Source: Candidatus Wolfebacteria bacterium RIFOXYD12_FULL_48_21 (GTDB lineage Bacteria > Patescibacteriota > Minisyncoccia > UBA6257 > UBA9933). Taken from it: a stretch of 64,000 nt of DNA. A program made the translations under genes and the position numbers. The notes under the pieces are model-generated. The model worked only from the letters and a program-made list of their open reading frames with translations, was not told the origin of the DNA and did no database searches. The DNA lies in contig MGIW01000006.1 in NCBI GenBank assembly GCA_001793945.1, positions 1,584 through 65,583 of the forward strand, in the 5' to 3' direction. Position 1 is the stretch's first letter. Each line of letters opens with the position of its first letter. Below, in pieces: positions 2,103 to 20,143 of the stretch.

Positions 2103-2448
2103 CAGATTCCTCGACAAGCTCGGAATGACAATGCGGGAAAGGGGAGGGAGATACAAATGACAGCTTTCATTTGTCATCCCGAGCGCAACGAAGCGAAGCG
2201 GAGTGAAGTCGAGAGATCTGTAGTAAAAAGCAGATTCCTTCCGCCAGCCGGCGGACAGGCTTAGACTCGGAATGACAATGCGGGGAGGGTGTCATCCCGT
2301 GCCACGACACGGGATCCAGTGTTTTCTGCAGTGGTAACACGGGGACACCCGAGTGCTGGATACCGGCCGGATCCGTCGGCTGACGGACTGATCCGCCAGC
2401 TGGCGGACGAATGGGCCGGAATGACAATACGGGGAATGACAGAGAAAC
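2103..2448. repeat. Cluster of 3-4 palindromic GTCATTCC/GGAATGAC elements
   Basis: cagattcctcgacaagctcggaatgacaat; gtcatcccgagcgcaacgaagcgaagcggag; ccgccagccggcggacaggcttagactcggaatgacaat; ccgccagctggcggacgaatgggccggaatgacaat. Confidence 0.8.
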
Positions 2449-2471
2449 GCGGGAGTGATAAGATTATTATT

Positions 2472-7363: not shown

Positions 7364-7720
7364 ATGAATGAGAATGCATATAATCTTGAGCAGCGAACGC
7401 GAGAGTTTTCTGTTCAGGTAATACGATTTCTTAAAACATTACAACAGGATACTATAAGCAGGCCGATTATTGGTCAACTAATACGGTCTGCTACCAGTGT
7501 CGGTGCAAATTATTGTGAGGCAAATGGGGCAAGCTCAAAAAAAGATTTTTGCAATAAAATATTTATTTGCAAAAAAGAGGCCAAAGAAACACATTATTGG
7601 CTTGATCTTATCGAAGAATGTTGCGGATATAAGAAGGAGCTTAATCATTTAAGAAATGAATGTGTCGAGCTGATTAGAATATTTTCTAAAATAGCCGCAA
7701 GTAGCAAAGAGGAGAGGTAA
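7364..7720 (+). CDS. four-helix-bundle protein (23S rRNA intervening-sequence protein family, TIGR02436-like)
   Basis: 118 aa; signature SATSVGANYCEANGASSKKDF...KEAKETHYWL; two paralogs at 22429 and 63131. Confidence 0.8.
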   Translation: MNENAYNLEQRTREFSVQVIRFLKTLQQDTISRPIIGQLIRSATSVGANYCEANGASSKKDFCNKIFICKKEAKETHYWLDLIEECCGYKKELNHLRNECVELIRIFSKIAASSKEER

Positions 7721-7775
7721 TTTGAAATTTAGAATTTTTAATTTATATTTTCAAATTTCGAATTTCAAATTGTAA
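7717..7775. repeat. AT-rich boundary element (ggTAAtttgaaatttagaatttttaatttatattttcaaatttcgaatttcaaattg); supplies stop codon of 7364..7720
   Basis: direct repeat of element at 7331. Confidence 0.75.
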
Positions 7776-7787
7776 ATTATCCAATGT

Positions 7788-8033
7788 ATGTCTGAAATTC
7801 TACCTAACGAAGTGTATACGACCGGGGAGGCTGAGGCTCTCTTAAAAGTGAGCAACAGCACCATGAAGCGTCTTTTGAAAAAGGGGCTCCTTCGGGCAAA
7901 CAAAGTGGGTGGGCAATACAGGATATTGGGGCATGAATTGTTGCGATTGCTTTCGCCTGAGGTAGATCAAAAGGCGACCGATCTGTATCAAAAGGTAAAG
8001 ACCATAACAAGGGAGGCGACCAAACACTGGTAA
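7788..8033 (+). CDS. helix-turn-helix DNA-binding protein (excisionase/MerR-like HTH_17 family)
   Basis: 81 aa, TGEAEALLKVSNSTMKRLLKKGLLRANKVGGQYRI matches excisionase-family HTH. Confidence 0.55.
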   Translation: MSEILPNEVYTTGEAEALLKVSNSTMKRLLKKGLLRANKVGGQYRILGHELLRLLSPEVDQKATDLYQKVKTITREATKHW

Positions 8034-8038
8034 TACAT

Positions 8039-9508
8039 ATGGATATTGACAAGCAGGCGGGGAAAAACTTTGCATGGCTCTCGACCGCACAGGTTGGCAT
8101 ACGCATTTTGGGCGCGGCGTTTTTCTTTTTTCTGTCGTACATATTGAAAGATACCGGGCTGGGCCAGTACAGCTTCGTTGCTTCGTTGGTTCCGTTTTGG
8201 TTTATTTTGGTTGATTTTGGTGCTAGTGGATATTTGTATCGCGAGTGGACTCGTGGGAAGGATGATCTAAAAACGATGGATCGTGATTTTAATATTTTGT
8301 TCACAACGCGGCTTATTATTATTTCGGCCGTGTTCATTCCGTTCGTCGCAATCAACTATGTTTCCAATCGGGATATATTGAGCTCGTTGATCCTGCTGTT
8401 CATTGCGCTGTTCATATCCCAAATGGTCGGGCTTTACGACTTGTATCTGCAATCGGCTAACCGGTTTAATGTCGTCGCCATCCGACAGGTCATAGAAAAG
8501 CTTGTGGTCACTGCTGTTGCCACCGTGGGACTGTTGTTATTGCCAAAGGTCTATGTCGTCTTTTTTGCCATTTTGGTAAGTTACATCGGCGCACTTTTGT
8601 ATTATCGGTATCGCGCCAACTTGCCATTCAGGTTTCACCTTGTATTTGATTGGGCGCGTTCCAAAGAACTGTTTCGCAAAGGAATGCCGTTTGTTTTTTT
8701 GGGCATGTTCGCCGCCATTTATGGACGCATCGACATGATCATGCTCCGGTACTTCAGTGGATTTGAAGCGGTCGGCTGGTATAGTGTTGCGTACAAGTTT
8801 TTGGATATCTCGTTTGTGTTCCCGTCGCTTTTTCTCGCCTCTATATTTCCTTTGCTTTCTTCCCTGTATGCGCGGGAAGGATCGGCCGGGCAATTTGCCA
8901 AACTGTTCGAAAAAAGTTTTCGCGTACTGTTCTCGTTTGGTGTTCTTGTGGCCGTATTTTTTATGTTTTTTGCGCCGCGCGTCATCGATCTGTTCTTTAT
9001 TGATTCGTTCGCCCCGGCGGCTCCGGCGCTGCGCATATTGATGGTAGGGCAAATGTTCGCATTTTTGAGCCTGTTGTTCAGTAATCTACTCATCGTTCAG
9101 CGAAAGGAATATAAGGGTCTGTATGTCGTCATGGCGTGCGCGTTGCTTAATATCGCGCTCAACATTTTGTTGATTCCAAAGTTTTCGCTCTATGGCGCCG
9201 CATGGGCAACGGTCGCGGCCGAGCTGGTTAATCTTGCCATATTGCAACACTATGCCGAATGGAAGACCACTCGCAATACGCTTATGACGATGTTTGCCGT
9301 GAGCGCGGGCAATTTGGCGTTGTTTGCAATATTTCACATAGCCGGCCTATTGGATGTGCTGTGGTTGGGCATTGTGGCATTGCTCTGTAACTTTGCTTTG
9401 TTGTTTGCAGTACGCTTGGTAAATAAGAATGATATACTCCTGTTTCTTGATCCGTTCGTCATGAAATTCAAAAGCCTACTGCGAAGTAATCAAGTTGATA
9501 CCGTATGA
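8039..9508 (+). CDS. polysaccharide biosynthesis protein / oligosaccharide flippase (Wzx-like, MOP superfamily)
   Basis: 489 aa, 12-14 predicted TM helices, polysacc_synt-like organisation. Confidence 0.6.
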   Translation: MDIDKQAGKNFAWLSTAQVGIRILGAAFFFFLSYILKDTGLGQYSFVASLVPFWFILVDFGASGYLYREWTRGKDDLKTMDRDFNILFTTRLIIISAVFIPFVAINYVSNRDILSSLILLFIALFISQMVGLYDLYLQSANRFNVVAIRQVIEKLVVTAVATVGLLLLPKVYVVFFAILVSYIGALLYYRYRANLPFRFHLVFDWARSKELFRKGMPFVFLGMFAAIYGRIDMIMLRYFSGFEAVGWYSVAYKFLDISFVFPSLFLASIFPLLSSLYAREGSAGQFAKLFEKSFRVLFSFGVLVAVFFMFFAPRVIDLFFIDSFAPAAPALRILMVGQMFAFLSLLFSNLLIVQRKEYKGLYVVMACALLNIALNILLIPKFSLYGAAWATVAAELVNLAILQHYAEWKTTRNTLMTMFAVSAGNLALFAIFHIAGLLDVLWLGIVALLCNFALLFAVRLVNKNDILLFLDPFVMKFKSLLRSNQVDTV

Positions 9509-10437
9509 ACAAGCCAACCCTTACTATCGGCATACCTACTTATAATCACGGTCATTTTTTAAAGGAATGCCTTGCGTGTGTTACTGGCCAGTTCGCCGGT
9601 CAGGGTATTTTTGATCGCGTAGAGATCGTGGTGTCGGACAACGGCAGTATCGACAATACGGCGGATGTTGTCCGGGAATATCAGAAGAGATTTTCAAATA
9701 TCCGATATTCCCGAAATGAAAGAAATTTGGAATTCGACCGGAATGTCGATGCCGTGCTTTCCATGGCGCGCGGGCAATTTTGCTGGACGCTGAGCAGTAA
9801 TGAATATCTGAAACCGGGGAGTATCGCATTTGTTCTTTCGGCGATCGAGCAGAATCGCGACGCGGCATTTTTATGCATATCGAATCGGCGAGAGGATATT
9901 GGGAAATCGGAGCTTCGGCGGTTCGCCAACGGAAGCCAATGGTTGAAGGATATGGGGCTGTTTGGCGGACAAATCTCCCAATGCGTATTCAATATGGAAT
10001 ATTTGCCGAGCGAGCGGGCAAAATATTACGATAATTTCTGGATCCATCTTTCGCTTTTTTGGGAAGCAGCTATTCGCCATCCGGTTGTGTTGCTGCCGTG
10101 CCTGTTTGCGCTGCCAGATGTCGTTCCGGTCTGCAAGTGGGCATGGGATCGGGGCGGTGGGCAGAATCTGATGACATATGTGTATCTTAAAAAGAATGTG
10201 GAAGGCCTTCTTCGGCTCGGTTATACTTATGAGGTAGTAGATCCTATTGTGAGCGGGTTGGCGAAAGGATTGCCTCGTATGGTCGCGTCGGCAAGATTAT
10301 GCGGATTGCCGATCGAGTGGAACAGATTTTTTCTACTGGTAAGGGAATTTTACCGCTATCCTCTGTACCTACTTGCTTCACTCGTGATTTTCGTTGTTCC
10401 CGTTATGGCGTTGCGAATGGTAAAAAAATATAGTTGA
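9505..10437 (+). CDS. glycosyltransferase family 2
   Basis: N-terminal LTIGIPTYNHGHFLKECLACV GT-A signature; start overlaps upstream stop (ATGA). Confidence 0.7.
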   Translation: MNKPTLTIGIPTYNHGHFLKECLACVTGQFAGQGIFDRVEIVVSDNGSIDNTADVVREYQKRFSNIRYSRNERNLEFDRNVDAVLSMARGQFCWTLSSNEYLKPGSIAFVLSAIEQNRDAAFLCISNRREDIGKSELRRFANGSQWLKDMGLFGGQISQCVFNMEYLPSERAKYYDNFWIHLSLFWEAAIRHPVVLLPCLFALPDVVPVCKWAWDRGGGQNLMTYVYLKKNVEGLLRLGYTYEVVDPIVSGLAKGLPRMVASARLCGLPIEWNRFFLLVREFYRYPLYLLASLVIFVVPVMALRMVKKYS

Positions 10438-10438
10438 T

Positions 10439-11488
10439 ATGCATATTGATACCAATAAAAAAATAGTCGTGTTCGATGCGGGTATTCCCCAGCTTTTAGA
10501 CAATAAGGTCTTTGACCCCGTTGCGGCAAAGGCCATAAGCCATACGATATTGCCTGCCTGTTATTTGTATCAAGAAGCGCTTAAGCGGGGCATACAGCTG
10601 GTGACGCCGGATATCTATTTTGCCTTGCCGAACAAGCCCGCGCATGCGCCGTTGATCAGTAATTTGACGAGCGAATATACGCAGCGGCTCATCGATGCGG
10701 GCGTCGAACCGACCCTTCTTGCCTGTGGCGAATCGCCGTTCATCGCTACGCGATTTTATGTCGGTTTGAAACGCATTAGTGCGGCATTTGTGCATTCGTT
10801 TGTGTTTAAGGGGATGAAGAAGCGGCTGAGTAAAAAGACGATTTATCATCAAATGTTTTTTCCACAATCATTTGAAGTGGCTTCTTTTGCGCCGGTTCCG
10901 TTCGGACAAAAAAAGTTCATCACGATGATCAGCGGCAACAAGCGTGTCGATAATTGGAAAAAGAACATCGTACTCAAGTTGCTGTACGGATTCGGGGTGA
11001 CAGAAATCTATGGAAAACGACTGTCGGTCATTGATCATTTTTCGGGCAAGGGGTTCGACTTGTATGGATTTGGATGGGATGCGAGCACGCGGCTGAGCGT
11101 CGTTGCGGCATATCGGGGGACGGTGGAAGATAAAGGTGAAACATTGGCACGATACAAGTTTGCTTTTTGTCTTGAAAACTCTATTTTCGAGGGAAATGTG
11201 ACCGAGAAGATATTTGATGCCTTATTTGCCGCCTGTGTGCCCGTGTATTTGGGCGCACCGGACATTGCCGACTATGTTCCCAAAGATGCATTCATCGACA
11301 TGCGTGATTTTGCTTCGTATGATGCGCTGGAAACATTTTTGCGAGCCATGGATGGAAAAACATACAGCGGATACATCGAGCGCATACAAGCATTTTTACG
11401 GTCGGATCAGTACAAACGCTTTTCTCAGGAACAATATGCAAACGATGTACTTTCTATTCTTGAAGAATCATTCAACAACCATGCCTAA
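10439..11488 (+). CDS. alpha-1,3-fucosyltransferase-like glycosyltransferase (GT10)
   Basis: C-terminal motif YKFAFCLENSIFEGNVTEKIFDAL matches GT10 FucT motif (..CFENS..YVTEK..). Confidence 0.6.
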   Translation: MHIDTNKKIVVFDAGIPQLLDNKVFDPVAAKAISHTILPACYLYQEALKRGIQLVTPDIYFALPNKPAHAPLISNLTSEYTQRLIDAGVEPTLLACGESPFIATRFYVGLKRISAAFVHSFVFKGMKKRLSKKTIYHQMFFPQSFEVASFAPVPFGQKKFITMISGNKRVDNWKKNIVLKLLYGFGVTEIYGKRLSVIDHFSGKGFDLYGFGWDASTRLSVVAAYRGTVEDKGETLARYKFAFCLENSIFEGNVTEKIFDALFAACVPVYLGAPDIADYVPKDAFIDMRDFASYDALETFLRAMDGKTYSGYIERIQAFLRSDQYKRFSQEQYANDVLSILEESFNNHA

Positions 11489-12413
11489 AGTAACCGTCGC
11501 CATACCTACCTATAATAGAAGGGAGCATTTGCGGGAGGCCATTAAGAGTGTACTTGCGCAGACCTTTCAGGATTTTGTCATCATCGTGTTTGATAACCAT
11601 AGCGATTATGATGTCCGTGCGTTTTTGGACGAATTTAATGATAGTCGAATATCGGCAATCGTTGCACCCGTAAACGAAGGTAACTATAATCACATCTTTA
11701 TGCATGGGTTTGATTCTGAGTATGCCATTTTATTTCATGATGACGATGTGATGCATCCCGAATTGTTGGCGCGCGAGGTTGCCGTACTTGATGCGCACAC
11801 GGAGCTGGTATGGGTCGGGACCGATCTGCAATTCGTTCGAAGCGATGCACGCATGCATGACTTTGTGCCCGTTAAGAGCGACATCATTTTTACGCACGAT
11901 GCGGCAGGCATTGTACGGCTTATCCTGCAAGGCTTTAATTTATGTTATGATTCGGTCATGTATCGGACTGTTCATCTCGATGATGCCGCTCCACTTACCA
12001 ATCAATATTCCAAATGGGGCGATCGGCCGTATCTTGTCAGTTTGTTGCATGGCGGGAAGGCGGGCATCATAAAGGAAAGGCTGGTAAACTATCGCATCCA
12101 CCCCGGGCAGGATTCGCAGGCTGCGGCGCCCGACTCCGCGCAATATGCCATCAACCTTTTGTTGTTCTATAAAAAATGTTTGCATAATTTGCAAATAGCA
12201 TCGGACAGGCGATTGTTTTATAGGCATGTCGTCGACAGTCTTATCCCCGCGACGATCGTTTCTTCGCGTACCATCGCGGAGTTCAAGCAATTTCTTTTAC
12301 CGTATCGTCGTGTTGGCCTTGTGCGATTGCGTTACATTACCCCGAAAGGAGTATTTCGATCGTTGCGTGCCTTAGTGCGAACTATACAGAAAAAATTACC
12401 ATGGAAAAATTGA
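11481..12413 (+). CDS. glycosyltransferase family 2 (start at in-frame Met 11481 overlapping upstream stop by 8 nt; ORF track start 11214 overlaps previous gene)
   Basis: MPKVTVAIPTYNRREHLREAIKSVLAQTFQDFVIIVFDN GT2 signature. Confidence 0.7.
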   Translation: MPKVTVAIPTYNRREHLREAIKSVLAQTFQDFVIIVFDNHSDYDVRAFLDEFNDSRISAIVAPVNEGNYNHIFMHGFDSEYAILFHDDDVMHPELLAREVAVLDAHTELVWVGTDLQFVRSDARMHDFVPVKSDIIFTHDAAGIVRLILQGFNLCYDSVMYRTVHLDDAAPLTNQYSKWGDRPYLVSLLHGGKAGIIKERLVNYRIHPGQDSQAAAPDSAQYAINLLLFYKKCLHNLQIASDRRLFYRHVVDSLIPATIVSSRTIAEFKQFLLPYRRVGLVRLRYITPKGVFRSLRALVRTIQKKLPWKN

Positions 12414-13384
12414 CCATTTTGACCCGCCGTGTTTCCCTTGCATATGCATTGCTAAAAAAGGCAAGGAATATGTTGCGGTTTTTGCGCGCATTCGCAAAAG
12501 GCGGCATTATCGATTTTGATTATATTCGGTATGGCGGACATGTTGCCGTTACTCGAAGTTTGGTCCATGGGTTACGGGAGCTCGGCACGAGTTTTAATTA
12601 TAACCCTGTTTCGGTATCTGCCATCGGCGATGTGGTCGTCGTGTTAAGCGGTGTCGGTGCGGTACGGCAGGCCATCGAACTAAAAAAACAGGGAAAGATA
12701 AAGAAGCTGTTCGTGGGGCCCAATGTCGTTGAGATGTCTACCGAGTATGACAATCTTCTTGCGGCGCCTGAGATCGACGCCTGTCTTGTTCCATCCGACA
12801 TGACCGTCGCGATCTATGAGCGGCTTACGCCCGCGCTTCGTGGCCGATGTGTGTCGTGGTATGCGGGGGTCGGCGAGAAATATTGGAGTCCACTTGAGCA
12901 TGTATCGATCGCAAAAAATGTCGCGGTCTATTGGAAAAATGCTCCCAAGCCGTTTTGCATGGAAGTGGAGCGGTTGTTGACCGTGCATGGATACACCCCT
13001 TTGCGGATTGTGTATGGGCGATATAATAAAAAAGAGTTCAGGCGCAAGTTGCGCATGAGCGCCTTTTCCGTTTTTTTAAGCATTACGGAAACACAGGGAA
13101 TAGCCCTTGCCGAATCGTGGGCGGTAAATGTGCCGACGCTTGTGTGGGACCCGCAGATCGAGCATTATTATATACGCGGGTTGCAGACCACGGCGGCGCC
13201 GTATCTGACCGATGCAACGGGACTGCGGTGGAAGGAGTTGGGCGAGTTTGAAGCCGCCATAAAAAACTTTTCCGCAGACGGTTTTCAACCGCGAGCGTGG
13301 GTCATGGAGCATATGACCGATCGGGTATCAGCGGAACAACTCGTGCAATTGTGCAAAGCCACACCTGATACAAAAACATTATGA
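12401..13384 (+). CDS. glycosyltransferase, GT-B fold (GT1/GT4-like)
   Basis: C-terminal FSVFLSITETQGIALAESWAVNVPTLV resembles GT4 E-x7-E region; weak. Confidence 0.4.
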   Translation: MEKLTILTRRVSLAYALLKKARNMLRFLRAFAKGGIIDFDYIRYGGHVAVTRSLVHGLRELGTSFNYNPVSVSAIGDVVVVLSGVGAVRQAIELKKQGKIKKLFVGPNVVEMSTEYDNLLAAPEIDACLVPSDMTVAIYERLTPALRGRCVSWYAGVGEKYWSPLEHVSIAKNVAVYWKNAPKPFCMEVERLLTVHGYTPLRIVYGRYNKKEFRRKLRMSAFSVFLSITETQGIALAESWAVNVPTLVWDPQIEHYYIRGLQTTAAPYLTDATGLRWKELGEFEAAIKNFSADGFQPRAWVMEHMTDRVSAEQLVQLCKATPDTKTL

Positions 13385-14139
13385 TTAAACATCTCATTAA
13401 AAAAGCAATTCCCAAAAAACTGTTACCCAAGGTAAAGGCGATCAATTTTATTTTGCGCAATAAGGTGACTTACGCGCAGGATTGTTTGTATACGACCGTC
13501 AATGCCGATTTTATGAACGATGCGCGGTTTGCAAACGCGTACGCGAAAGGGCGCGCGCTCATGCTCGAGTCGTGGGGCGATTATCAATTCCATTGGCGTG
13601 CATATGTTGCGTGCTGGGCTGCTCAAAAGGCGAGCGGTATTGAAGGCGACTTTGTTGAGTGCGGCGTGAATACGGGCATGCTTGATAGGATGATCATCGA
13701 TTATGTTGATTTTGCGCACTTGCCTAAAAAGTTCTACCTTATGGATACATTTCAAGGCATGGACGAGGCGTACAGCACCGAGGCAGAAATGAAACGATCC
13801 CATACCATGGGATATGTCGATGTGTACGAGCAGGTGAAGAAAACATTCAAGGAGTTTCCGAATGTCGAATTGGTCAAGGGGCCTATTCCTGACACCTTGC
13901 CGCTGGTCCCGTCTAAGGCAATCGCGTATTTGTCGATCGACATGAATTGCGTCGCGCCCGAAGTCGCCGCACTGGAATATTTTTGGGACAGGATCGTTTC
14001 GGGCGGTGTTGTTTTGTTCGATGACTACGGCTTCCCGGGGCATGAACAACAAAAGACTGCCCATGATGCATTTGCCGCGAAAAAAGGAGTATCTATTTTG
14101 CCGCTTCCTACGGGGCAGGGGCTCATTATTAAACCTTGA
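13381..14139 (+). CDS. TylF/MycF-family sugar O-methyltransferase (class I SAM-dependent)
   Basis: 252 aa; GDFVECGVNTGM and VVLFDDYGFPGHEQQKTAHDAF motifs typical of macrocin-O-methyltransferase family. Confidence 0.65.
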   Translation: MIKHLIKKAIPKKLLPKVKAINFILRNKVTYAQDCLYTTVNADFMNDARFANAYAKGRALMLESWGDYQFHWRAYVACWAAQKASGIEGDFVECGVNTGMLDRMIIDYVDFAHLPKKFYLMDTFQGMDEAYSTEAEMKRSHTMGYVDVYEQVKKTFKEFPNVELVKGPIPDTLPLVPSKAIAYLSIDMNCVAPEVAALEYFWDRIVSGGVVLFDDYGFPGHEQQKTAHDAFAAKKGVSILPLPTGQGLIIKP

Positions 14140-14142
14140 TTC

Positions 14143-15066
14143 ATGCCATTGGTTTCCATCATCATTCCCACTTATAACAGTGCACGATTTCTCTCGCGAA
14201 CCATCGAGAGCGTGTTGGCGCAGACCTATCGGAACTTTGAATTGATCATCGTCGATGATGTTTCTACCGATGATACCGTTTCGATCATTCGCTCGTTCGC
14301 GGAAAAGGATTCGCGCATACGCTCTATTGTTTCGGATACCAATTCCGGCGGCCCTGCCCGGCCGACTAATAAAGGACTTGTCGTTGCGAAAGGGGACTTT
14401 GTCGCATTTCTGGATCATGACGATGAATGGTTGCCCGAAAAGCTGCAAGAGCAGGTTTCATTTTTACAGTCTGCATCAAAGGATGTCGGCGCCGTAGTTT
14501 GCGATGTCGATCTGTTGACGCCGGATGGTGCGCGCCGTCCCATGCATGTATTTCCCGATTATCCGACCAAAGAGAGTTTTCTTACCGCAGTCTTATGCGC
14601 GAAATTCTTTTTTATGTTTTCTGACCTGTGTATGCGCAGGGAAACACTGGATGCCGTAGGCTTGCTTGATGAACGCTATGTGCTGGGCGCGGATCATGAC
14701 TATTATGTTCGCATTGCGCAGGTTTGTTTGATCGGCGTGGTGCATAAGCCGTTGATCCGTTATGCCGTGCATCCGCAAAATCTTTCGCGCGGGTCGCTTT
14801 CTTTAACCAATGCCATAGCCGATCTGGAGCTGTCGCTTGATACGCATGCGGAGCTGTTTGCTCGATACCCTCGGTGTTATCGGCGCAGAGTGGTACAATT
14901 AGGTAGTGCGTTAATAGCCGTCGGAAATATGAAGCAGGCACGCAGCGCATTGCGTACTGCATTTTTCCTGAATCCGCTGGCGCTTGATGTTCCATTTTAT
15001 TTGCTCCTTTCTTTTTTGGGTAAGCGAATACATCGCGCATTGAAGACAATAAAAAATACGGTTTGA
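14143..15066 (+). CDS. glycosyltransferase family 2
   Basis: VSIIIPTYNSARFLSRTIESVLAQTYRNFELIIVDDVSTDDT. Confidence 0.75.
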   Translation: MPLVSIIIPTYNSARFLSRTIESVLAQTYRNFELIIVDDVSTDDTVSIIRSFAEKDSRIRSIVSDTNSGGPARPTNKGLVVAKGDFVAFLDHDDEWLPEKLQEQVSFLQSASKDVGAVVCDVDLLTPDGARRPMHVFPDYPTKESFLTAVLCAKFFFMFSDLCMRRETLDAVGLLDERYVLGADHDYYVRIAQVCLIGVVHKPLIRYAVHPQNLSRGSLSLTNAIADLELSLDTHAELFARYPRCYRRRVVQLGSALIAVGNMKQARSALRTAFFLNPLALDVPFYLLLSFLGKRIHRALKTIKNTV

Positions 15067-15070
15067 AACC

Positions 15071-15808
15071 ATGCTTAAAGCGATCGTCAAAAAAACAAAA
15101 AAAATTGCATTGCTTCCGCTTATTATTGGGGATTATTTTGCATTCAAAAAAGCAGCCGGCCGTAACGGGCGCTTTACCGTAAATCTTGGCGATGCTTATC
15201 CGTGTCCTTTTGACAAGACCATGTTGACCGGGTTTGATCGGCATTATGTGTATCATACCGCTTGGGCGGCGCGGAAGGTTGCGTACATAAAGCCGGAGGT
15301 CCATACGGATATATCTTCGAGTCTGTATTTTTCTTCCATCGTTTCGGCTTTTGTGCCGGTAACATTTTATGATTATCGGCCGGCCGATCTTCAGTTGAGC
15401 GGCTTGCTTAGTGAAAAGGCAGATCTGCTTGCATTGCCGTTTGCAGACAATAGTGTTGCGTCGCTTTCATGCATGCATACCGTGGAGCATGTGGGGCTGG
15501 GGCGCTATGGCGACCCTATCGACCTAGATGGCGACCTGAAGGCAATCAAGGAGTTGCAGCGGGTGCTTGCGCCGGGCGGATCGCTGTTGTTCGTAGTACC
15601 GATAGGCAAGGCAAAGATCCAATTTAATGCGCATCGCATCTATTCCTACGCCATGATCATGGAATATTTTAATGATCTTGAGTTGAGGGAGTTTTCGCTT
15701 ATTCCCGAAACAAGCGGCTCCATGATCGTCAATGCAACAAGAGAGCAGGCGGACGAGGAGGCATATGGATGTGGATGCTTTTGGTTTGTGAAGAAAGGGA
15801 ATGGGTAA
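15071..15808 (+). CDS. putative SAM-dependent methyltransferase (Methyltransf_11/DUF268-like); stop codon lies inside AT-rich boundary element
   Basis: LQRVLAPGGSLLFVVPIG motif II-like; weak overall. Confidence 0.4.
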   Translation: MLKAIVKKTKKIALLPLIIGDYFAFKKAAGRNGRFTVNLGDAYPCPFDKTMLTGFDRHYVYHTAWAARKVAYIKPEVHTDISSSLYFSSIVSAFVPVTFYDYRPADLQLSGLLSEKADLLALPFADNSVASLSCMHTVEHVGLGRYGDPIDLDGDLKAIKELQRVLAPGGSLLFVVPIGKAKIQFNAHRIYSYAMIMEYFNDLELREFSLIPETSGSMIVNATREQADEEAYGCGCFWFVKKGNG

Positions 15809-15852
15809 TTTGAAATTTAGAATTTTAAATTTTAAATTTATAATTTTATATA
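15803..15852. repeat. AT-rich boundary element (gggtaatttgaaatttagaattttaaattttaaatttataattttatat)
   Basis: same family as 7331/7717. Confidence 0.75.
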
Positions 15853-16718
15853 TGATCATCATCAAATTAAAAGGAGGGTTGGGGAATCAGATGTTCCAGT
15901 ATGCGTGCGCGAAGCATTTGGCCGAGCGTAATGGTGATGTATTGAAATTGGACATCAGCCTTTACCAACCGGGCAATGCTCCCGCGGGCGATACCGCGCG
16001 TTCGTATGCCTTGGGCGCGTTTTCCATTTCCGCACAGGTGGCGAGCAAAGAAGAGGTCCGGCGGGTCAGGGGGCTACTGTGGCACATTATGGCATTAGCC
16101 ATGAAGGTCATTAACAGGGTGCGGCCGATATCCAGTTACATGTTTGACCCGCAGGTATTAGAACGCAGAGGCAATGTGTATCTGGATGGATATTTTCAAA
16201 GCGAGCGATATTTTAAGGATATAAAAGCTTGCATCAGAAATGAATTCCGATTGCGTGAACCTATGGGTGAGCAGGCGCAGGCCATGTTGCGCGACATCGA
16301 CGGATCGGATTCCGTTTCCCTGCATATACGGCGAGGCGATTATGTGACAAATAAAAACGCCAATGCGTTTCATGGGACCTGCCCGCCCGAATATTATCAT
16401 GCGGCTATCAAGGAAATAGGTAAGCATGTACATTCGCCGAAGTTCTTCATATTTTCTGATGACATCGAATGGGCAAAAGCGGATGTCGGCATGCCGGCTC
16501 ATGCTACCTATGTGTCCCGCGATGGCATAGCAGATTATGAGGAGCTTTTATTGATGAGCAAGTGCAAGCACAACATCATCGCGAACAGCAGTTTTAGCTG
16601 GTGGGGTGCGTGGCTCAATGCAAACTCGAACAAGATCGTTGTTGCGCCGAAGCGGTGGATAAACGACGAGCGTGTCGATACGAGTGATGCGGTGCCTGTG
16701 GAATGGGTTAGTATGTGA
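15852..16718 (+). CDS. alpha-1,2-fucosyltransferase (GT11); start moved from 15801 (which reads through the AT-rich repeat) to Met 15852
   Basis: IIKLKGGLGNQMFQYACAKHLA = canonical GT11 N-terminal motif (FutC-like). Confidence 0.75.
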   Translation: MIIIKLKGGLGNQMFQYACAKHLAERNGDVLKLDISLYQPGNAPAGDTARSYALGAFSISAQVASKEEVRRVRGLLWHIMALAMKVINRVRPISSYMFDPQVLERRGNVYLDGYFQSERYFKDIKACIRNEFRLREPMGEQAQAMLRDIDGSDSVSLHIRRGDYVTNKNANAFHGTCPPEYYHAAIKEIGKHVHSPKFFIFSDDIEWAKADVGMPAHATYVSRDGIADYEELLLMSKCKHNIIANSSFSWWGAWLNANSNKIVVAPKRWINDERVDTSDAVPVEWVSM

Positions 16719-16734
16719 TTAAAAATCCCGGTCG

Positions 16735-17454
16735 TCAGATCGGGATTTTTAACCATATGCGCATGAATGCAAGAATGCGGATGATAATCGTTTTGCGTAT
16801 CATAGGTCCCCAATGCTTTTGCGTGACTGACCCTTCCGTAATGCGGTATTTAAAAAGATACTCGGGCAGGTTTGCGGTGTTGAATGTTGCGACTATGCGT
16901 GTCCAAAGCTCGTAGTCTTCTGCATGTTTGTATTCTTGCCGATAGCGACCGACTTTTTCGATTGCTTGTTTTGTGAACATCACGCTTGGGTGAATAAAAG
17001 GATTATGTCGCAGCATCGCGCGCTTTATTTCCGCATGTGTTGTCGAGGGATAGTCGTATGCGCCTGTTTCTTCCCCTGTATCGCTTATCGTCTTCGCCCA
17101 TGTGCCGCACAGGGCAATATCGGGGTGTCCTCTTAAAAAGGTAACCTGCTTTTCGAGGCGTACGGGCTCAGACATATCATCAGCGTCCATGCGGGCGATG
17201 TAGGTTCCTTGGGCGATTTTCAGCCCTGTGTTAAGTGCGCCAATGATTCCCGTATTGGATTGCGAGACCATATGAATACGCGGATCCGTAAAACTTTTTA
17301 TAATTTCTGCCGATCTATCCGATGATCCATCATTTATAATAATGAATTCAAAATCGGTAAATGTTTGATGGAGGATGCTCTCGATCGCTTCTTTTACAAA
17401 TCGCTCCGCGTTATATACCGGCATTATGACGCTTATGAGTGGCGTTTTATTCAT
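16735..17454 (-). CDS. glycosyltransferase family 2
   Basis: LISVIMPVYNAERFVKEAIESILHQTFTDFEFIIINDGSSDRS. Confidence 0.75.
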   Translation of the reverse strand: MNKTPLISVIMPVYNAERFVKEAIESILHQTFTDFEFIIINDGSSDRSAEIIKSFTDPRIHMVSQSNTGIIGALNTGLKIAQGTYIARMDADDMSEPVRLEKQVTFLRGHPDIALCGTWAKTISDTGEETGAYDYPSTTHAEIKRAMLRHNPFIHPSVMFTKQAIEKVGRYRQEYKHAEDYELWTRIVATFNTANLPEYLFKYRITEGSVTQKHWGPMIRKTIIIRILAFMRIWLKIPI

Positions 17455-18565
17455 ATATTTTTTCGTATTGCCTTACCATCGCTTCTCCTTCGAATTGGGC
17501 GCGGTGGTTTTTTTGTGCTTCGGAATATGTGCTGTCTTTTTGCGAATGAATCGTCTTTACCTTTATGATAAAATCTTCGACATCGTCGAGCTTATAGGTT
17601 TGTGCCGGATCACCGAGCAGTTCCGGTGTGCCGCCGACGCGGGAGGCTAAAATCGGCACTTCGGCAAACATTGCTTCTATGAGCGTTATCGACATACCTT
17701 CGTATTCGGAGGGAAGCGCAAATAGGTCAAATGCTTTGATGTATTGATATGCGTCAACCAGCTCGCCCACAAAAAATACATTGTTTGACAATTTTCTGAG
17801 CCCGATCATGCGCTCGTATTTTTCCCGCTCCGGTCCTTCGCCGATGACAAGTATGGTCGCGTCGGGGATATCGCGCAGGATATCAGGCAGCGTGTCTATA
17901 AGGAATTCATAATTCTTCGGATAGGCAAGGCGGCCTATGGAACCGATGATGAAACGGTTTGAGATGTCTGTTTTTGTCAGCGTGGAAAGGGAAATGCGGG
18001 CTTCATTGCGAGGCAAAAATCGCAATGCATTTGCGGCGATGCCATTGTGGATCACCGTGCCTTTCGCAAGCAGGCCCACCTTTTTCGCATACTCGAAGTT
18101 TTCTTTGCTTACAAATACGGATTCATCGACAAGCGACAGGAGGAACTTGAACAGAAGTCGATATAAGCCCTTTATGATCTTTGACGCGGAAAAATTTGGG
18201 TCTACTATTGAAAGGCCATGCAGTGTAAAAACGATCTTTGGACGATGGCGCAATAATCGTGTGCCGATGACGCCGAACAGCGCATTTGAACTGTTGAAAT
18301 GCACGACATCAAATGAATGTTGCGCGAGAAATGTCCGCAGCTCCCAGCCAAAAAACAGATTCGTGAGCGGGTTTTTTGTCCGACGCAATGAACTGAATCG
18401 AACAATAGAAATGCCTTCCGGGGCCAGCGTGTCGCGCAGGTAGTCTCCTTCGCCACAGGCAACGGTTATTTTGTGTCCTTGTTTGTGCAATATTTTTGCG
18501 AGCGTTGAAACAAAGACTTGCGCTCCGCCGATTTCCCCTTTGGTTATTACGATGAGAATGTTCAT
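17447..18565 (-). CDS. glycosyltransferase family 4 (GT-B)
   Basis: 372 aa, N-terminal NILIVITKGEIGGAQVFV, C-terminal EGMSITLIEAMFAEVPILASRVGG (E-x7-E region). Confidence 0.7.
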   Translation of the reverse strand: MNILIVITKGEIGGAQVFVSTLAKILHKQGHKITVACGEGDYLRDTLAPEGISIVRFSSLRRTKNPLTNLFFGWELRTFLAQHSFDVVHFNSSNALFGVIGTRLLRHRPKIVFTLHGLSIVDPNFSASKIIKGLYRLLFKFLLSLVDESVFVSKENFEYAKKVGLLAKGTVIHNGIAANALRFLPRNEARISLSTLTKTDISNRFIIGSIGRLAYPKNYEFLIDTLPDILRDIPDATILVIGEGPEREKYERMIGLRKLSNNVFFVGELVDAYQYIKAFDLFALPSEYEGMSITLIEAMFAEVPILASRVGGTPELLGDPAQTYKLDDVEDFIIKVKTIHSQKDSTYSEAQKNHRAQFEGEAMVRQYEKIYE

Positions 18566-18690
18566 GATGTGAGGTTGGAGATGTGAGATTAGAGGTGTGA
18601 GGTTGGAGATGGGAGGTATGAGATGCGAGATGAGAGATGAGAGGTGAGAGATGCGAGGTTAGGGGGTGGAGATATGAGACGGGGGGCGGA
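18566..18690. repeat. GA-rich repeat tract (gtgaggttggagatgtgagattagaggtgtgagg...gagatgcgaggttaggggg)
   Basis: direct reading, lies between two minus-strand genes. Confidence 0.7.
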
Positions 18691-20143
18691 GGCGGTGGAG
18701 GATTGGGTCGGTGATTTCTTTAAATGTTGGGTCTTGTAGTAGGTGCAGAATATATCCGTAGAGTGCAGCCGATGCAATGATAATAATGATTGCGTTGAGT
18801 TCGAGTAATGCAAGGCTTATGATGGACATGAAAAGAATAAATGACGCCGTAAGAATGTTCGGCAGTTTTTTTCGTATCGAGATGGATATTTCCTGTTTGA
18901 GCTTGGTGGATAGATAGACCGTGATGATGGTTTGGGTGATCAATGTAGAAAAGGCGGCGCCCGCGATGCCGAAGTGGGGTATCAGTGCCAAATTGAAGAA
19001 AAAGTTGCCGAAGATCCCGATAAGCGCATAGGCGAACAGACTGCGCTCCTTATTGAGCGCGAAAAGCGCGTTGCCCAATATCGGTGCAAGAAAACCTGTA
19101 ATGAATGTAAGCGACATGATCGCAAATGCAAACGAGCCTGCGAGGTACTGGTCGCCGTAGACGATGTATATGATGTCCTTTGCGAGTAGCGCTCCGCCGA
19201 TGGCCATGGGGATGCCTATCATGAGGAGCGCGAGTATCGATCGTTCAAGCGCATGCGTGAAGCGATCTTTGTCATGTGCGAATCGAGCAAGCGAAGGGAA
19301 GAGTGCGGTGCCGAGCAATGCCGGGATCATGAAGATGATCTGTGCTATGCGCAATCCTGCGGAATAATAACCGACATCGGTTATGTCACGAAACCAGCCT
19401 ATCATGATAGTATCGGTGTTGAGCATGGTCGCCGTCATGAGCCCGAGCATGCCAATGGGCCAGCTTGCGTAGAGGATGGGCTTGATGAGTTTCGGATCGA
19501 ATGTTTGGCGAATGTTTTTGAAATAGCGGCGGAATGGATGGAATGCCACAAGCATACCGATGCCGACACCAATGGTGTATCCGACGGAAAGGGAATAGGA
19601 AGTTCCGTAATAGGAGAGCGCAACAAGTCCGCCTATGACAATGGCTATATTGGTAATTATCTGTATTGCCGCTTCGATTTCCATTTTTTCCCATGCGCGG
19701 GAAAGCGATGCGGCAAAATCGCGCATACCGTCGAGACTGACGAGTAGGATAATGATTGGCAAAAGCGCCATAATAGCCTTTTGTTTTATGATGAACGGCG
19801 CGAGTGCAAGGAATATGATAATGGAGGCGACCGTCATGACGAGCTTAATGACGATCGAGGTGGAAAAATATTTTTCCTGCACGGAAAGATCCTTTGCCGA
19901 TTCGCGGGTTATGACCGTGCTGATGCCGAAGTCGGTAAATACCGTAAAGAACGCCGCCAAAGAAAGTGCATAGGAAAAGACACCCCACTCTCCTGCGCCA
20001 AGAATACGCGCAGCATAGATGATGATACCCGCCTTTATGAGCCGGGAGCTGATATTGCCAAAAAAGAGCCAAAATGTATTTTTTTCTATGGTCTGTCGGG
20101 TTGTTTTGTTCTCCAAGAGGAGGGATTTGGCTTTTGAAAACAT
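18659..20143 (-). CDS. polysaccharide flippase (Wzx-like); start moved to Met (MFSKAKSLL..), ORF-track N-terminal 45 aa is translation of repeat DNA
   Basis: multi-TM MOP-family organisation; N-terminus PPYTFYPHPFTPIPYTYYP is low-complexity read-through of GA/TC repeat. Confidence 0.6.
   Translation of the reverse strand: MFSKAKSLLLENKTTRQTIEKNTFWLFFGNISSRLIKAGIIIYAARILGAGEWGVFSYALSLAAFFTVFTDFGISTVITRESAKDLSVQEKYFSTSIVIKLVMTVASIIIFLALAPFIIKQKAIMALLPIIILLVSLDGMRDFAASLSRAWEKMEIEAAIQIITNIAIVIGGLVALSYYGTSYSLSVGYTIGVGIGMLVAFHPFRRYFKNIRQTFDPKLIKPILYASWPIGMLGLMTATMLNTDTIMIGWFRDITDVGYYSAGLRIAQIIFMIPALLGTALFPSLARFAHDKDRFTHALERSILALLMIGIPMAIGGALLAKDIIYIVYGDQYLAGSFAFAIMSLTFITGFLAPILGNALFALNKERSLFAYALIGIFGNFFFNLALIPHFGIAGAAFSTLITQTIITVYLSTKLKQEISISIRKKLPNILTASFILFMSIISLALLELNAIIIIIASAALYGYILHLLQDPTFKEITDPILHRLRPPSHISTP

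What the first reader, a model, noticed from the sequence alone, without database searches (positions are those of the whole stretch)
8039..20143. Glycan operon combining GT10 (alpha1,3) and GT11 (alpha1,2) fucosyltransferases with two methyltransferases, GT2/GT4 transferases and two flippases
A plus-strand operon with translationally coupled, overlapping stops and starts runs from the flippase at 8039 to the GT11 gene ending at 16718. It converges on a minus-strand trio (flippase, GT4, GT2). GT10 (..CLENS..VTEKI..) and GT11 (GGLGNQMFQYA) together are the enzyme pair that builds Lewis-type difucosylated epitopes in Helicobacter. Here they are joined by a TylF-like sugar O-methyltransferase and a second methyltransferase. 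With the ligase/TPR fusion, the WbaP-like initiator and the dideoxy-sugar genes, the whole 325-24196 region looks like a single surface-glycan island. That island would make a methylated, fucosylated heteropolysaccharide or a protein glycan.
Basis: partly seen in the sequence, partly recalled or inferred. Interest (0 to 1): 0.55.

Follow-up and report, generated by a model that had tools for sequence, protein, structure and literature searches.

The report
Surface-sugar gene island of an ultrasmall bacterium
This is an ordinary-type but large gene island for building a decorated cell-surface sugar chain; it sits in a tiny-genome groundwater bacterium (Candidatus Wolfebacteria), and the proposed "Lewis blood-group-like" product is not supported.

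Summary
The genes are real and at the stated coordinates. Family assignments hold:
- two Wzx-type flippases;
- four GT2, one GT4, one GT10 and one GT11 glycosyltransferase;
- a TylF-like and a DUF268-type methyltransferase.

- The unlabelled 327-aa ORF (12401-13384) is an eighth glycosyltransferase, with a GT-B/GT4-like fold.
- GT11 most likely starts at 15852, behind its own promoter-like AT-rich element.
- The island extends at least 9 kb upstream of the window.

The window belongs to Candidatus Wolfebacteria RIFOXYD12_FULL_48_21, a member of the Candidate Phyla Radiation (CPR, also called Patescibacteria), with exact protein matches.

The "dideoxy-sugar genes" are a true E1 dehydrase plus a YerE-like thiamine enzyme. 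Together these imply a yersiniose-type branched 3,6-dideoxyhexose.

A sister Wolfebacteria species keeps the flanks (61-85% identity) but carries a different central flippase and transferase cassette. That is the pattern of a serotype-like variable surface-glycan locus.

No GDP-fucose genes (Gmd, Fcl) and no CDP-glucose genes occur in the 74 kb I could read. No LacNAc-building enzymes were found either. The Lewis-epitope idea is therefore unsupported, although fucose-like transfer by GT10 and GT11 remains the best guess.

Verdict: a new member of a known kind, of moderate-to-low interest.

The parts
331..2028 (+). YerE-like thiamine-diphosphate carboligase, the branching enzyme for an acyl-branched 3,6-dideoxyhexose
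   Evidence: Three TPP_enzyme domains. The best solved relative is JanthE (8RPH, 381 bits), a YerE-like enzyme. Next is 5AHK at 253 bits, ahead of plant AHAS at 224 bits.
2331..2945 (+). NUDIX hydrolase, probably acting on a nucleotide sugar
   Evidence: PF00293, E 1.4e-6. Weak hit to GDP-mannose mannosyl hydrolase. A homologue sits next to E1 in the Saccharibacteria locus L017 and in three metagenome loci that carry YerE.
3546..4880 (+). E1/RfbH: CDP-6-deoxy-L-threo-D-glycero-4-hexulose-3-dehydrase
   Evidence: NCBIfam RfbH 647 bits against a cut-off of 423. 513 bits to the Yersinia E1 structure 3BCX across the full length, with the HH and Cys motifs retained.
5082..7250 (+). Membrane protein with about 12 TM segments, a Wzy_C domain and a C-terminal TPR domain. 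Either a polymerase or a ligase/oligosaccharyltransferase.
   Evidence: PF04932 36 bits against a cut-off of 31.7, plus TPR hits. TM count and TPR matches. 61% identical in the sister species.
7719..7771 (+). AT-rich heptamer array containing a promoter-like TTGAAA-16-TATATT
   Evidence: The motif AATTTGAAATTTAGAATTTT gives 6 hits against 0 expected, all intergenic. Also.
7788..8033 (+). HTH_17 (excisionase/MerR-like) small DNA-binding protein heading the operon
   Evidence: PF12728, E 2.5e-10. Conserved in the same position in L009, L173 (83%) and L174 (59%).
8039..9508 (+). Wzx-type flippase 1, belonging to the variable cassette
   Evidence: Polysacc_synt 102 bits. Only 29% identity to its counterpart in sister species L173.
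9505..10437 (+). GT2 glycosyltransferase a
   Evidence: PF00535, E 1e-21.
10439..11488 (+). GT10-family transferase (alpha1,3/4-fucosyltransferase-like)
   Evidence: PF00852 59.6 bits. C-terminal domain aligns to H. pylori FucT 2NZW, E 8e-13. AF2 model pLDDT 94.8. The top Foldseek hits are all GT10 fucosyltransferases. The residues matching the H. pylori N, E and K donor-site positions are invariant in the family.
11481..12413 (+). GT2 glycosyltransferase b, the conserved neighbour of the GT10 gene
   Evidence: PF00535. Directly adjacent to the GT10-like gene in 7 related loci. Fused to a DUF268 methyltransferase in L018.
12401..13384 (+).
   Evidence: No Pfam or NCBIfam hit. Some family members carry PF00534 or PF13692. 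AF2 pLDDT 92.4. Foldseek matches GT4-type enzymes 8XSH, GlgM, BshA and MshA at E about 1e-7.
13381..14139 (+). TylF-family SAM-dependent sugar O-methyltransferase (variable gene)
   Evidence: PF05711 68 bits. PDB hits to MycF, NovP and O-methyltransferases. The gene is absent from the 77%-identical relative L009.
14143..15066 (+). GT2 glycosyltransferase c
   Evidence: PF00535, E 9e-36.
15071..15808 (+). DUF268-type class I methyltransferase
   Evidence: PF03269, E 3.7e-16, and Methyltransf_11. Fused to a GT10-like domain in L058. 79% identical in the sister species.
15852..16718 (+). GT11-family transferase (alpha1,2-fucosyltransferase-like)
   Evidence: PF01531, E 1.5e-39, nearly full length. 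Motifs GGLGNQMFQYA, HIRRGDY and SSFSWWGAWL are present. The 288-aa form is the NCBI protein OGM93880. Preceded by the AT-rich motif at 15807-15855.
16735..17454 (-). GT2 glycosyltransferase d
   Evidence: PF00535, E 8.5e-37.
17447..18565 (-). GT4 glycosyltransferase (conserved core)
   Evidence: Glyco_transf_4 plus Glycos_transf_1. 68% identical in L173.
18566..18662 (.). (GAGRTGW)n heptamer tandem array between GT4 and Wzx2; a site that varies between strains
   Evidence: TRF period 7/14, score 103. Replaced by a PemK-like toxin gene in contigs L003 and L004.
18659..20143 (-). Wzx-type (MurJ-like) flippase 2 (conserved core)
   Evidence: Polysacc_synt 124 bits, MurJ 63 bits. 80% identical in L173.
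22856..24196 (+). Polyprenyl-phosphate hexose-1-phosphate transferase (initiating enzyme)
   Evidence: Bac_transf, E 7.8e-66. TIGR03025 352 bits against a cut-off of 296. 78% identical and syntenic in L173.

Best explanation
This is the main surface-glycan assembly island of a CPR bacterium, Candidatus Wolfebacteria. It works like a Wzx-dependent, undecaprenyl-phosphate-linked pathway.

**Proposed steps (all steps are inferred from family membership and gene context; no enzymatic step is shown)**
1. The Bac_transf enzyme (22856-24196) starts the chain on a lipid carrier.
2. Up to eight cytoplasmic glycosyltransferases extend it: four GT2, one GT4, one divergent GT-B, one GT10 and one GT11.
3. 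Two SAM-dependent methyltransferases O-methylate sugars.
4. E1 plus a YerE-like enzyme supply a yersiniose-type branched 3,6-dideoxyhexose.
5. A Wzx flippase moves the finished unit across the membrane.
6. The 12-TM Wzy_C-TPR protein either polymerises it or ligates it to an acceptor. Because CPR cells are thought to lack LPS, that acceptor would be a protein or a wall polymer.

**GT10 and GT11.** They most likely add fucose or a closely related GDP-linked 6-deoxy-L-hexose.

**Locus architecture.** There is a conserved frame and a swappable centre.
- Frame: Wzy_C, HTH, DUF268 methyltransferase, GT11, GT4, Wzx2, CorA and PGT.
- Centre: Wzx1-GT2-GT10-GT2-GT-B-TylF-GT2.
- Different species and strains therefore display different glycans, as with O-antigen or capsule serotypes.
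For: **Family assignments.**

**Organism.** The GT10, GT11 and ClpB proteins are identical to NCBI proteins of Ca. Wolfebacteria RIFOXYD12_FULL_48_21.

**GT10.**
- The fold is closest to solved GT10 fucosyltransferases.
- The donor-site motif aligns with H. pylori FucT.
- The key residues are invariant across 27 relatives.

**GT11.** Motifs are intact. Hundreds of Patescibacteria homologues of about 285-290 aa exist.

**The 327-aa ORF.** It has a GT-B fold.

**Branched-sugar enzymes.** E1 is a true orthologue. The TPP enzyme is closest to YerE-like JanthE, and PMC9306805 gives the pathway.

**Conservation of the operon.**
- The same operon order occurs in other Patescibacteria: L009, L013, L016 and L017.
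- Sister species L173 has conserved flanks at 61-85% identity. Its central cassette is unrelated: Wzx1 is 29% identical and its GT10 is non-orthologous.
- The TylF gene is absent in L009.

**Context supporting fucose.**
- The Bacteroidota loci L025 and L029 combine a GT10-like gene, GT11, Gmd (65%) and Fcl (56%).
- A Pacebacteria GT11 locus is flanked by an Fcl-like gene, 48% identical to E. coli Fcl, with the NCBIfam Fcl model as best hit.

**Fusions.** GT10-DUF268 and GT2-DUF268 fusion proteins tie the methyltransferase to these transferases.
Against: - No Gmd, Fcl or ManC was found in the 74 kb available (window plus 10 kb upstream). No RfbF or RfbG was found either. Both special-sugar pathways therefore lack their first steps locally.
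- No Wzz, Wza or LCP-type partner was found among the window ORFs that were scanned.
- The role of the Wzy_C-TPR protein (polymerase or ligase) is undetermined.
- Two flippases could mean two separate products.
- The residue matching H. pylori Tyr246 is Asn in this GT10.
- Island composition is only slightly shifted (GC3 0.54 against 0.59), so there is no strong sign of recent foreign origin.
- There is no biochemical evidence for any step.
Confidence: 0.6

Rival explanations
1. Protein O-glycosylation system. The Wzy_C-TPR protein is a PglL/WsaB-type oligosaccharyltransferase. It moves a short, methyl-capped oligosaccharide from the lipid carrier onto S-layer, pilin or other surface proteins, rather than polymerising a polysaccharide.
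For: - The Wzy_C domain is shared by O-oligosaccharyltransferases, and its TPR domain suggests protein recognition.
- No chain-length regulator, exporter or LCP ligase was found in the window.
- Type IV pilus genes lie in the same window.
- CPR genomes have been proposed to make glycosylated S-layers (PMC5220378).
- Terminal O-methylation is a known chain-terminating cap in Gram-positive S-layer glycans (my own knowledge).
Against: - The Wzy_C domain alone cannot separate Wzy, WaaL and PglL functions.
- No target protein or sequon was identified.
- Eight or more transferases plus two flippases fit a repeat-unit polymer equally well.
Confidence: 0.3
2. Two separate products. The plus-strand variable operon (Wzx1 to GT11) makes one glycan. 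The conserved minus-strand trio (Wzx2, GT4, GT2d), together with the PGT, makes a second, conserved glycan or lipid-linked intermediate.
For: - There are two flippases with different evolutionary behaviour: Wzx2 is 80% identical in the sister species and Wzx1 only 29%.
- The transcription units converge, with 16 nt between stop codons.
- Wzx2 also scores on the MurJ model.
- The related Paceibacterota locus L013 manages with one Wzx.
Against: - Only one initiating transferase and one Wzy_C protein are visible.
- GT11 and the DUF268 methyltransferase, on the plus strand, are as conserved as the minus-strand trio. The conserved/variable split therefore does not follow the strand split.
Confidence: 0.25
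3. Lewis-type mimicry. GT10 and GT11 difucosylate a Gal-GlcNAc backbone to give Lewis b/y-like epitopes, as in Helicobacter pylori.
For: Both families are present, with intact donor-site motifs.
Against: - No LacNAc-building enzyme family (for example GT25) appears among the locus ORFs.
- No GDP-fucose genes were found in 74 kb.
- The organism is a groundwater CPR bacterium with no animal host.
- The GT10 N-terminal (acceptor) domain shows no sequence similarity to H. pylori FucT.
- The product would also be O-methylated and carry a branched dideoxy sugar.
Confidence: 0.04

Closest known systems
Wzx/Wzy-dependent O-antigen and capsule loci (for example E. coli/Salmonella rfb, the colanic acid cluster, Gram-positive cps loci)
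   Same: - A WbaP/WcaJ-type initiating phosphoglycosyl transferase.
- A MOP-family Wzx flippase.
- A Wzy_C-domain membrane protein.
- A string of translationally coupled transferases, with nucleotide-sugar genes alongside.
- Conserved flanks around a variable central cassette between relatives.
   Different: - The host is a CPR bacterium with a genome of about 1 Mb.
- No Wzz/PCP, Wza or LCP partner was detected.
- The Wzy_C protein carries a TPR domain.
- There are two flippases.
- The first steps of both special-sugar pathways are not in the neighbourhood.
Helicobacter pylori FutA/FutB (GT10) and FutC (GT11) Lewis-antigen fucosyltransferases
   Same: - Same two CAZy/Pfam families.
- GT10 C-terminal donor motif (xENSxxxGxVTEK) and fold.
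- GT11 HxRRGD motif.
   Different: - The GT10 N-terminal acceptor domain is unrelated in sequence.
- There are no heptad-repeat tails and no LacNAc backbone enzymes.
- Two methyltransferases and a branched-sugar pathway sit in the same locus.
- The Tyr246 equivalent is Asn.
Yersiniose/erwiniose/caryophyllose pathways (E1/DdhC plus a YerE-like ThDP enzyme; Y. pseudotuberculosis O:6, P. atrosepticum, M. marinum)
   Same: - A true E1 dehydrase (about 60% identical to the Yersinia enzyme).
- A ThDP enzyme closest to the YerE-like JanthE, encoded about 1.5 kb away with a NUDIX gene and a 97-aa ORF between them.
   Different: - No DdhA/DdhB (RfbF/RfbG) lies within 74 kb, although relatives have them adjacent.
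- E3 and a YerF-type reductase were not identified.
- The donor keto-acid, and therefore the branch length, is unknown.
S-layer protein O-glycosylation loci of Gram-positive bacteria (Geobacillus WsaP/WsaB/WsaE, Paenibacillus Wsf)
   Same: - A WbaP-like initiator.
- A Wzy_C-domain transferase.
- Sugar O-methylation.
- A cell envelope without LPS.
   Different: - Those systems use an ABC transporter rather than Wzx.
- No S-layer gene or target is identified here.

Membership tests
GT10 (alpha1,3/4-fucosyltransferases; Pfam PF00852) | Significant match to the family model above the curated threshold | tested here: met
   PF00852 59.6 bits against a cut-off of 23.9. The match covers the C-terminal domain only, residues 230-312.
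GT10 (alpha1,3/4-fucosyltransferases; Pfam PF00852) | Alpha1,3-FucT motif (FxxxFENSxxxxYxTEK) with the donor-binding Asn, Glu and Lys | tested here: met
   FAFCLENSIFEGNVTEK aligns to H. pylori FucT residues 221-297. N247, E256 and K257 are invariant in 27 relatives. The Tyr position is Asn here, while it is Tyr in most relatives.
GT10 (alpha1,3/4-fucosyltransferases; Pfam PF00852) | Two-domain GT-B fold closest to solved GT10 enzymes | tested here: met
   AF2 pLDDT 94.8. Foldseek ranks 1-17 are H. pylori FucT, FUT9, mango FucT13 and Arabidopsis FUT11, with E 8e-10 to 2e-7.
GT10 (alpha1,3/4-fucosyltransferases; Pfam PF00852) | N-terminal catalytic base and phosphate-binding Arg (H. pylori E95 and R195) | tested here: inconclusive
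   E98 and R194 are invariant in the family alignment. No residue-level alignment to the H. pylori N-terminal domain was obtained.
GT10 (alpha1,3/4-fucosyltransferases; Pfam PF00852) | Uses GDP-beta-L-fucose and forms an alpha1,3 or alpha1,4 linkage | not testable with these tools
   Needs an enzyme assay. Context is mixed across 33 related loci of at least 10 kb: 8 have Gmd+Fcl and 11 have E1+YerE-like genes nearby.
GT11 (alpha1,2-fucosyltransferases; Pfam PF01531) | Full-length match above the curated threshold | tested here: met
   PF01531 136.5 bits against a cut-off of 23.9, covering profile positions 34-296 of 298.
GT11 (alpha1,2-fucosyltransferases; Pfam PF01531) | Conserved motifs: N-terminal GGLGNQMFQYA, HxRRGDY, and SxFSWWxAWL | tested here: met
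   GGLGNQMFQYA, HIRRGDY and SSFSWWGAWL are all present.
GT11 (alpha1,2-fucosyltransferases; Pfam PF01531) | Uses GDP-fucose (some members use GDP-colitose) | not testable with these tools
   No solved relative was found by sequence. An Fcl-like gene flanks a GT11 locus in a Pacebacteria genome.
Lewis-antigen synthesis system (H. pylori type) | Enzymes that build the Gal-GlcNAc (type 1 or 2) acceptor | tested here: not met
   Pfam scans of all locus ORFs found only GT2, GT4, GT10, GT11 and an unclassified GT-B. There was no GT25-type galactosyltransferase.
Lewis-antigen synthesis system (H. pylori type) | GDP-fucose supply (gmd and fcl, or fkp) | tested here: inconclusive
   tblastn with E. coli Gmd, Fcl, ManC and ManB found none in the window plus 10 kb upstream. 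The rest of the roughly 0.9 Mb genome could not be read.
Wzx/Wzy-dependent glycan assembly | Initiating polyprenyl-phosphate sugar-phosphate transferase | tested here: met
   Bac_transf E 7.8e-66. TIGR03025 352 bits against a cut-off of 296.
Wzx/Wzy-dependent glycan assembly | MOP-family Wzx flippase | tested here: met
   Two proteins with Polysacc_synt at 102 and 124 bits and about 10-14 hydrophobic segments.
Wzx/Wzy-dependent glycan assembly | Wzy polymerase | tested here: inconclusive
   The only candidate is the 722-aa Wzy_C-TPR protein, at 36 bits against a cut-off of 31.7. The domain is shared with ligases and O-oligosaccharyltransferases.
Wzx/Wzy-dependent glycan assembly | Chain-length regulator or export partner (Wzz/PCP, Wza) or an LCP ligase | tested here: not met
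   None was found among the window ORFs that were scanned.
Acyl-branched 3,6-dideoxyhexose (yersiniose-type) pathway | E1 3-dehydrase with the His-His and Fe-S Cys motifs | tested here: met
   513 bits to 3BCX across the full length. SFYPAHHITMGEGG and the Cys pattern CxC...C are conserved. NCBIfam RfbH 647 bits.
Acyl-branched 3,6-dideoxyhexose (yersiniose-type) pathway | YerE-like ThDP carboligase rather than a housekeeping AHAS | tested here: met
   Best PDB hit is JanthE (8RPH) at 381 bits, against 224 bits for AHAS. The score is below every NCBIfam AHAS cut-off. The gene is clustered with E1 here and in 30 of 49 metagenome loci.
Acyl-branched 3,6-dideoxyhexose (yersiniose-type) pathway | CDP-glucose synthase and 4,6-dehydratase (DdhA/RfbF and DdhB/RfbG) | tested here: not met
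   Both are present next to E1/YerE in relatives L016, L035 and L041. tblastn found no hit in the window plus L007. They may lie elsewhere in the genome.

The most novel reading that the evidence does not exclude
The GT10-family enzyme, with its fixed GT2 neighbour and the DUF268 methyltransferase, may not be a fucosyltransferase module at all. It may install, and then methylate, the branched 3,6-dideoxyhexose made by the adjacent E1 and YerE-like enzymes. That would be the first GT10 member with a donor other than GDP-fucose.

A third of the loci holding full-length relatives of this GT10 carry E1 plus YerE-like genes (11 of 33). This is more than carry Gmd+Fcl (8 of 33).

The reciprocal test argues against a general link: only 1 of 49 YerE-like loci carries a GT10-like gene. 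It does not exclude the idea for this clade.
Probability: 0.07. Interest if true: 0.6.

Novelty: new member of a known kind. Interest (0 to 1): 0.33.

Why it matters
CPR (Patescibacteria) bacteria have genomes of about 1 Mb and are thought to live attached to host cells, so their surface is central to their biology. Almost nothing is known about their glycans.

- This island spans at least 34 kb, about 3-4% of the genome.
- It predicts a complex product: a chain bearing 6-deoxyhexose, O-methylated, and carrying a rare branched dideoxy sugar.
- Its conserved-frame, variable-centre layout across Wolfebacteria species suggests serotype-like diversification, as expected under phage or host-recognition pressure.

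It gives concrete targets for heterologous assays and for lectin- or antibody-based sorting of uncultured CPR cells: GT10, GT11, the two methyltransferases, and the E1/YerE-like pair. It does not reveal a new mechanism.

Tried and rejected
1. **GT10-like enzyme as the dedicated transferase for the YerE/E1 branched sugar.**
   - The forward association looked strong: 11 of 33 loci.
   - A reciprocal scan of metagenome contigs with a YerE-like profile found E1 in 30 of 49 loci of at least 8 kb, but a GT10-like gene in only 1.
   - I downgraded the idea to a low-probability reading.
2. **Search for GDP-fucose genes.** tblastn with E. coli Gmd, Fcl, Gmm, ManC and ManB against the window and the 10 kb upstream found only a 115-aa PMI-type cupin. 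The rest of the genome could not be reached.
3. **Search for CDP-glucose genes** (RfbF, RfbG) in the same 74 kb: none found.
4. **Foreign-island test.** GC and GC3 are only 3-5 points below housekeeping genes and codon-usage distances overlap. There is no clear horizontal-transfer signature.
5. **Sequence search of PDB.**
   - GT11 and the DUF268 protein: no hits.
   - The TM part of Wzy_C-TPR: only TPR hits.
6. **NCBIfam on the upstream radical-SAM, SDR and HAD genes:** only generic matches.
7. **Generic promoter and terminator scan:** not above shuffles overall.
8. **Literature.** No paper in the library links CPR with fucosyltransferases, or yersiniose with fucosyltransferases.

Full report

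| Coordinates | Strand | Assignment |
|---|---|---|
| 8039-9508 | + | Wzx-type flippase |
| 9505-10437 | + | GT2 |
| 10439-11488 | + | GT10 (PF00852, 59.6 bits, cut-off 23.9) |
| 11481-12413 | + | GT2 |
| 13381-14139 | + | TylF-family methyltransferase |
| 14143-15066 | + | GT2 |
| 15071-15808 | + | DUF268/Methyltransf_11 |
| ends 16718 | + | GT11 (PF01531, 136.5 bits) |
| 16735-17454 | - | GT2 |
| 17447-18565 | - | GT4 |
| 18659-20143 | - | second Wzx-type flippase |

The junctions are tight: four true start/stop overlaps and gaps of 1-4 nt.

Three corrections are needed.
- GT11 almost certainly starts at 15852, giving 288 aa. This is the NCBI protein, and it matches the 285-290 aa length of its many homologues. 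The 43-nt spacer in front of it carries the motif AATTTGAAATTTAGAATTTT. That motif recurs in other intergenic regions (6 hits against 0 expected) and contains promoter-like hexamers.
- The ORF at 12401-13384 has no Pfam or NCBIfam hit, but it is a glycosyltransferase. Some relatives carry GT4-type domains. Its AlphaFold model (pLDDT 92.4) matches GT-B/GT4 enzymes such as GlgM, BshA and MshA.
- An 81-aa HTH_17 gene (7788-8033) heads the operon and is conserved in that position in relatives.

**Organism.** The GT10, GT11 and ClpB proteins are identical to GenBank proteins of Candidatus Wolfebacteria bacterium RIFOXYD12_FULL_48_21, in the Patescibacteria/Parcubacteria group. The longest contig that carries them is 893 kb. 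The same locus occurs on more than 20 metagenome contigs. The rest of the window is ordinary chromosome: ParAB, ClpB, PGK, PolX and type IV pilus genes. In GenBank these glycan genes are labelled 'hypothetical protein'. UniProt carries only automatic domain names.

**The two fucosyltransferase-like genes.**
- GT10: the C-terminal domain aligns with H. pylori alpha1,3-FucT (E 8e-13). The Asn, Glu and Lys of the donor motif are conserved, while the Tyr is Asn here. These residues, plus E98 and R194, are invariant in 27 relatives. The model (pLDDT 94.8) has solved GT10 fucosyltransferases as its 17 best structural matches.
- GT11: it carries GGLGNQMFQYA, HIRRGDY and SSFSWWGAWL.
- Both meet the membership tests that can be run in silico. 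Donor, linkage and acceptor cannot be tested here.

**Sugar supply.**
- The upstream 'aminotransferase-like' gene (3546-4880) is a true E1/RfbH dehydrase. It scores 513 bits against the Yersinia structure with catalytic motifs intact.
- The TPP enzyme (331-2028) is closest to JanthE, a YerE-like carboligase. It scores 381 bits there against 224 bits for AHAS.
- Together they indicate an acyl-branched 3,6-dideoxyhexose of the yersiniose family (PMC9306805, PMC12247030).
- Neither the CDP-glucose genes that precede E1 in relatives nor Gmd, Fcl or ManC occur in the window or the 10 kb upstream.
- Two GH130 mannoside-phosphorylase-family genes and a PMI-type cupin lie at 56-60 kb. They could provide mannose-1-phosphate, but this is only a lead.

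**Context in relatives.** I fetched 80 genome loci holding GT10-like relatives and compared them with window proteins and with E. coli Gmd and Fcl.
- Among the 33 loci of at least 10 kb with a full-length relative, 11 carry E1-like plus YerE-like genes, 8 carry Gmd+Fcl and 5 carry GT11.
- A GT2b-like gene is directly adjacent in 7 loci.
- Other Patescibacteria (L009, L013, L016, L017) keep the order Wzx-GT2-GT10-GT2-GT-B...(DUF268)...GT11.
- One locus fuses a GT10-like domain to DUF268, and another fuses a GT2b-like domain to DUF268. This links the methyltransferase to these transferases.
- The idea that this GT10 clade transfers the branched sugar was tested in reverse. Of 49 metagenome loci with a YerE-like gene, 30 have E1 but only one has a GT10-like gene. 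The link is therefore not general.
- Support for fucose comes from the Bacteroidota loci that combine a GT10-like gene, GT11, Gmd and Fcl. It also comes from a Pacebacteria GT11 locus flanked by an Fcl-like gene.

**Architecture and variability.** A sister Wolfebacteria species (L173) has the same frame:

| Protein | Identity to window protein |
|---|---|
| Wzy_C | 61% |
| HTH | 83% |
| DUF268 methyltransferase | 79% |
| GT11 | 66% |
| GT4 | 68% |
| Wzx2 | 80% |
| CorA | 85% |
| PGT | 78% |

- Its centre is different. Wzx1 is 29% identical, and there is another GT2 pair, a Methyltransf_21, a GT-D and a non-orthologous GT10.
- The 77%-identical relative L009 lacks the TylF gene.
- Some strains carry a PemK-like toxin gene in place of the repeat array between GT4 and Wzx2.
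- This is the conserved-flank, variable-centre pattern typical of O-antigen and capsule loci.
- Composition is only mildly shifted: GC3 is 0.54 against 0.59.

**Mechanism.** The best-supported model is a Wzx-dependent, lipid-linked assembly, and every step in it is inferred.
1. The Bac_transf enzyme initiates.
2. Eight or more transferases extend the chain.
3. Two methyltransferases decorate it.
4. A flippase exports it.
5. The 12-TM Wzy_C-TPR protein polymerises or ligates it.

No Wzz, Wza or LCP partner was seen. CPR cells are thought to lack LPS (general knowledge), so ligation to protein (S-layer or pili) is a serious rival. Two flippases could also mean two products. The Lewis-epitope reading has no support beyond the family pairing.

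**Verdict.** It is a new member of a known kind of locus. Its interest comes mainly from its host lineage, its size relative to the genome, the rare branched-sugar genes and the serotype-like variation.

Noticed in passing
window 195-221, 2936-3008, ~5002, 18566-18662, 20158, 20356, 22819-22854 (reverse complement): There are purine-rich, C-poor heptanucleotide tandem arrays of the form (GAGRTGW)n in intergenic spacers. GAGRTGWGAG gives 20 hits against 0.29 expected, and 19 of the 20 lie inside the first 23 kb, at gene-cassette junctions of the glycan island. The arrays are present in same-species contigs but nearly absent from a 77%-identical relative. They resemble the heptamer STRR repeats of cyanobacteria (from memory). 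Function unknown.
   Followed up: partly
window 7719-7771, 15807-15855, 58019-58042, 60691-60710: An AT-rich 7-nt-period motif (AATTTGAAATTTAGAATTTT) recurs only in intergenic regions just upstream of genes: the HTH/Wzx1 operon, GT11, a GH130 gene and pilB. It contains -35/-10-like hexamers and is probably a promoter element of this genome.
   Followed up: partly
L003 17125-17700 and L004 15185-15500 (strain variants), corresponding to window ~18572-18693: In two contigs of the same species, the repeat array between GT4 and Wzx2 is replaced by an insertion of about 560 bp that encodes a PemK-like toxin.
   Followed up: partly
L007 500-9450 (the 10 kb upstream of window position 1): The island continues upstream of the window. 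It holds four radical-SAM genes (one B12-binding, two SPASM/twitch type), a GT2, a 308-aa SDR and a HAD hydrolase. They could be sugar-modifying enzymes, but only generic family matches were obtained.
   Followed up: partly
window 56115-58010 (-), 58102-59958 (-), 59985-60332 (-): There are two long GH130-family (beta-mannoside phosphorylase) proteins and a 115-aa mannose-6-phosphate-isomerase-type cupin. They are a possible scavenging route to mannose-1-phosphate, and so to GDP-mannose and GDP-fucose.
   Followed up: no
window 7364-7720 and 22429-22809: Two '23S rRNA intervening sequence protein' (four-helix-bundle, Avd-like) genes sit inside the island. The second is absent from the syntenic locus of the sister species (L173).
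   Followed up: no
L058 256-2532; L018 11273-12973: Two natural fusion proteins were found: a GT10-like domain plus a DUF268 methyltransferase (758 aa), and a GT2b-like domain plus a DUF268 methyltransferase (566 aa). Members of the DUF268 family also sit in C. elegans 'glycoclusters' (PMC7614267).
   Followed up: partly
window 2331-2945; L017 9511-10008; L096, L129, L137: A NUDIX protein with an uncharacterised N-terminal extension of about 100 aa is repeatedly encoded next to E1/YerE-like genes, in CPR genomes and in unrelated metagenome contigs. This suggests a role in that nucleotide-sugar pathway.
   Followed up: no
window 27827-28866 (inside ORF 27716-29227): A 503-aa protein with an N-terminal hydrophobic segment contains 6.7 tandem copies of a 153-nt coding repeat. 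It may be a repetitive surface protein and therefore a candidate glycosylation target.
   Followed up: no
window 21443-22363: A CorA magnesium-transporter gene lies between the second flippase and the initiating transferase. It keeps that position in the sister species (85% identity), so it is a stable resident of the island despite having no obvious glycan role.
   Followed up: partly
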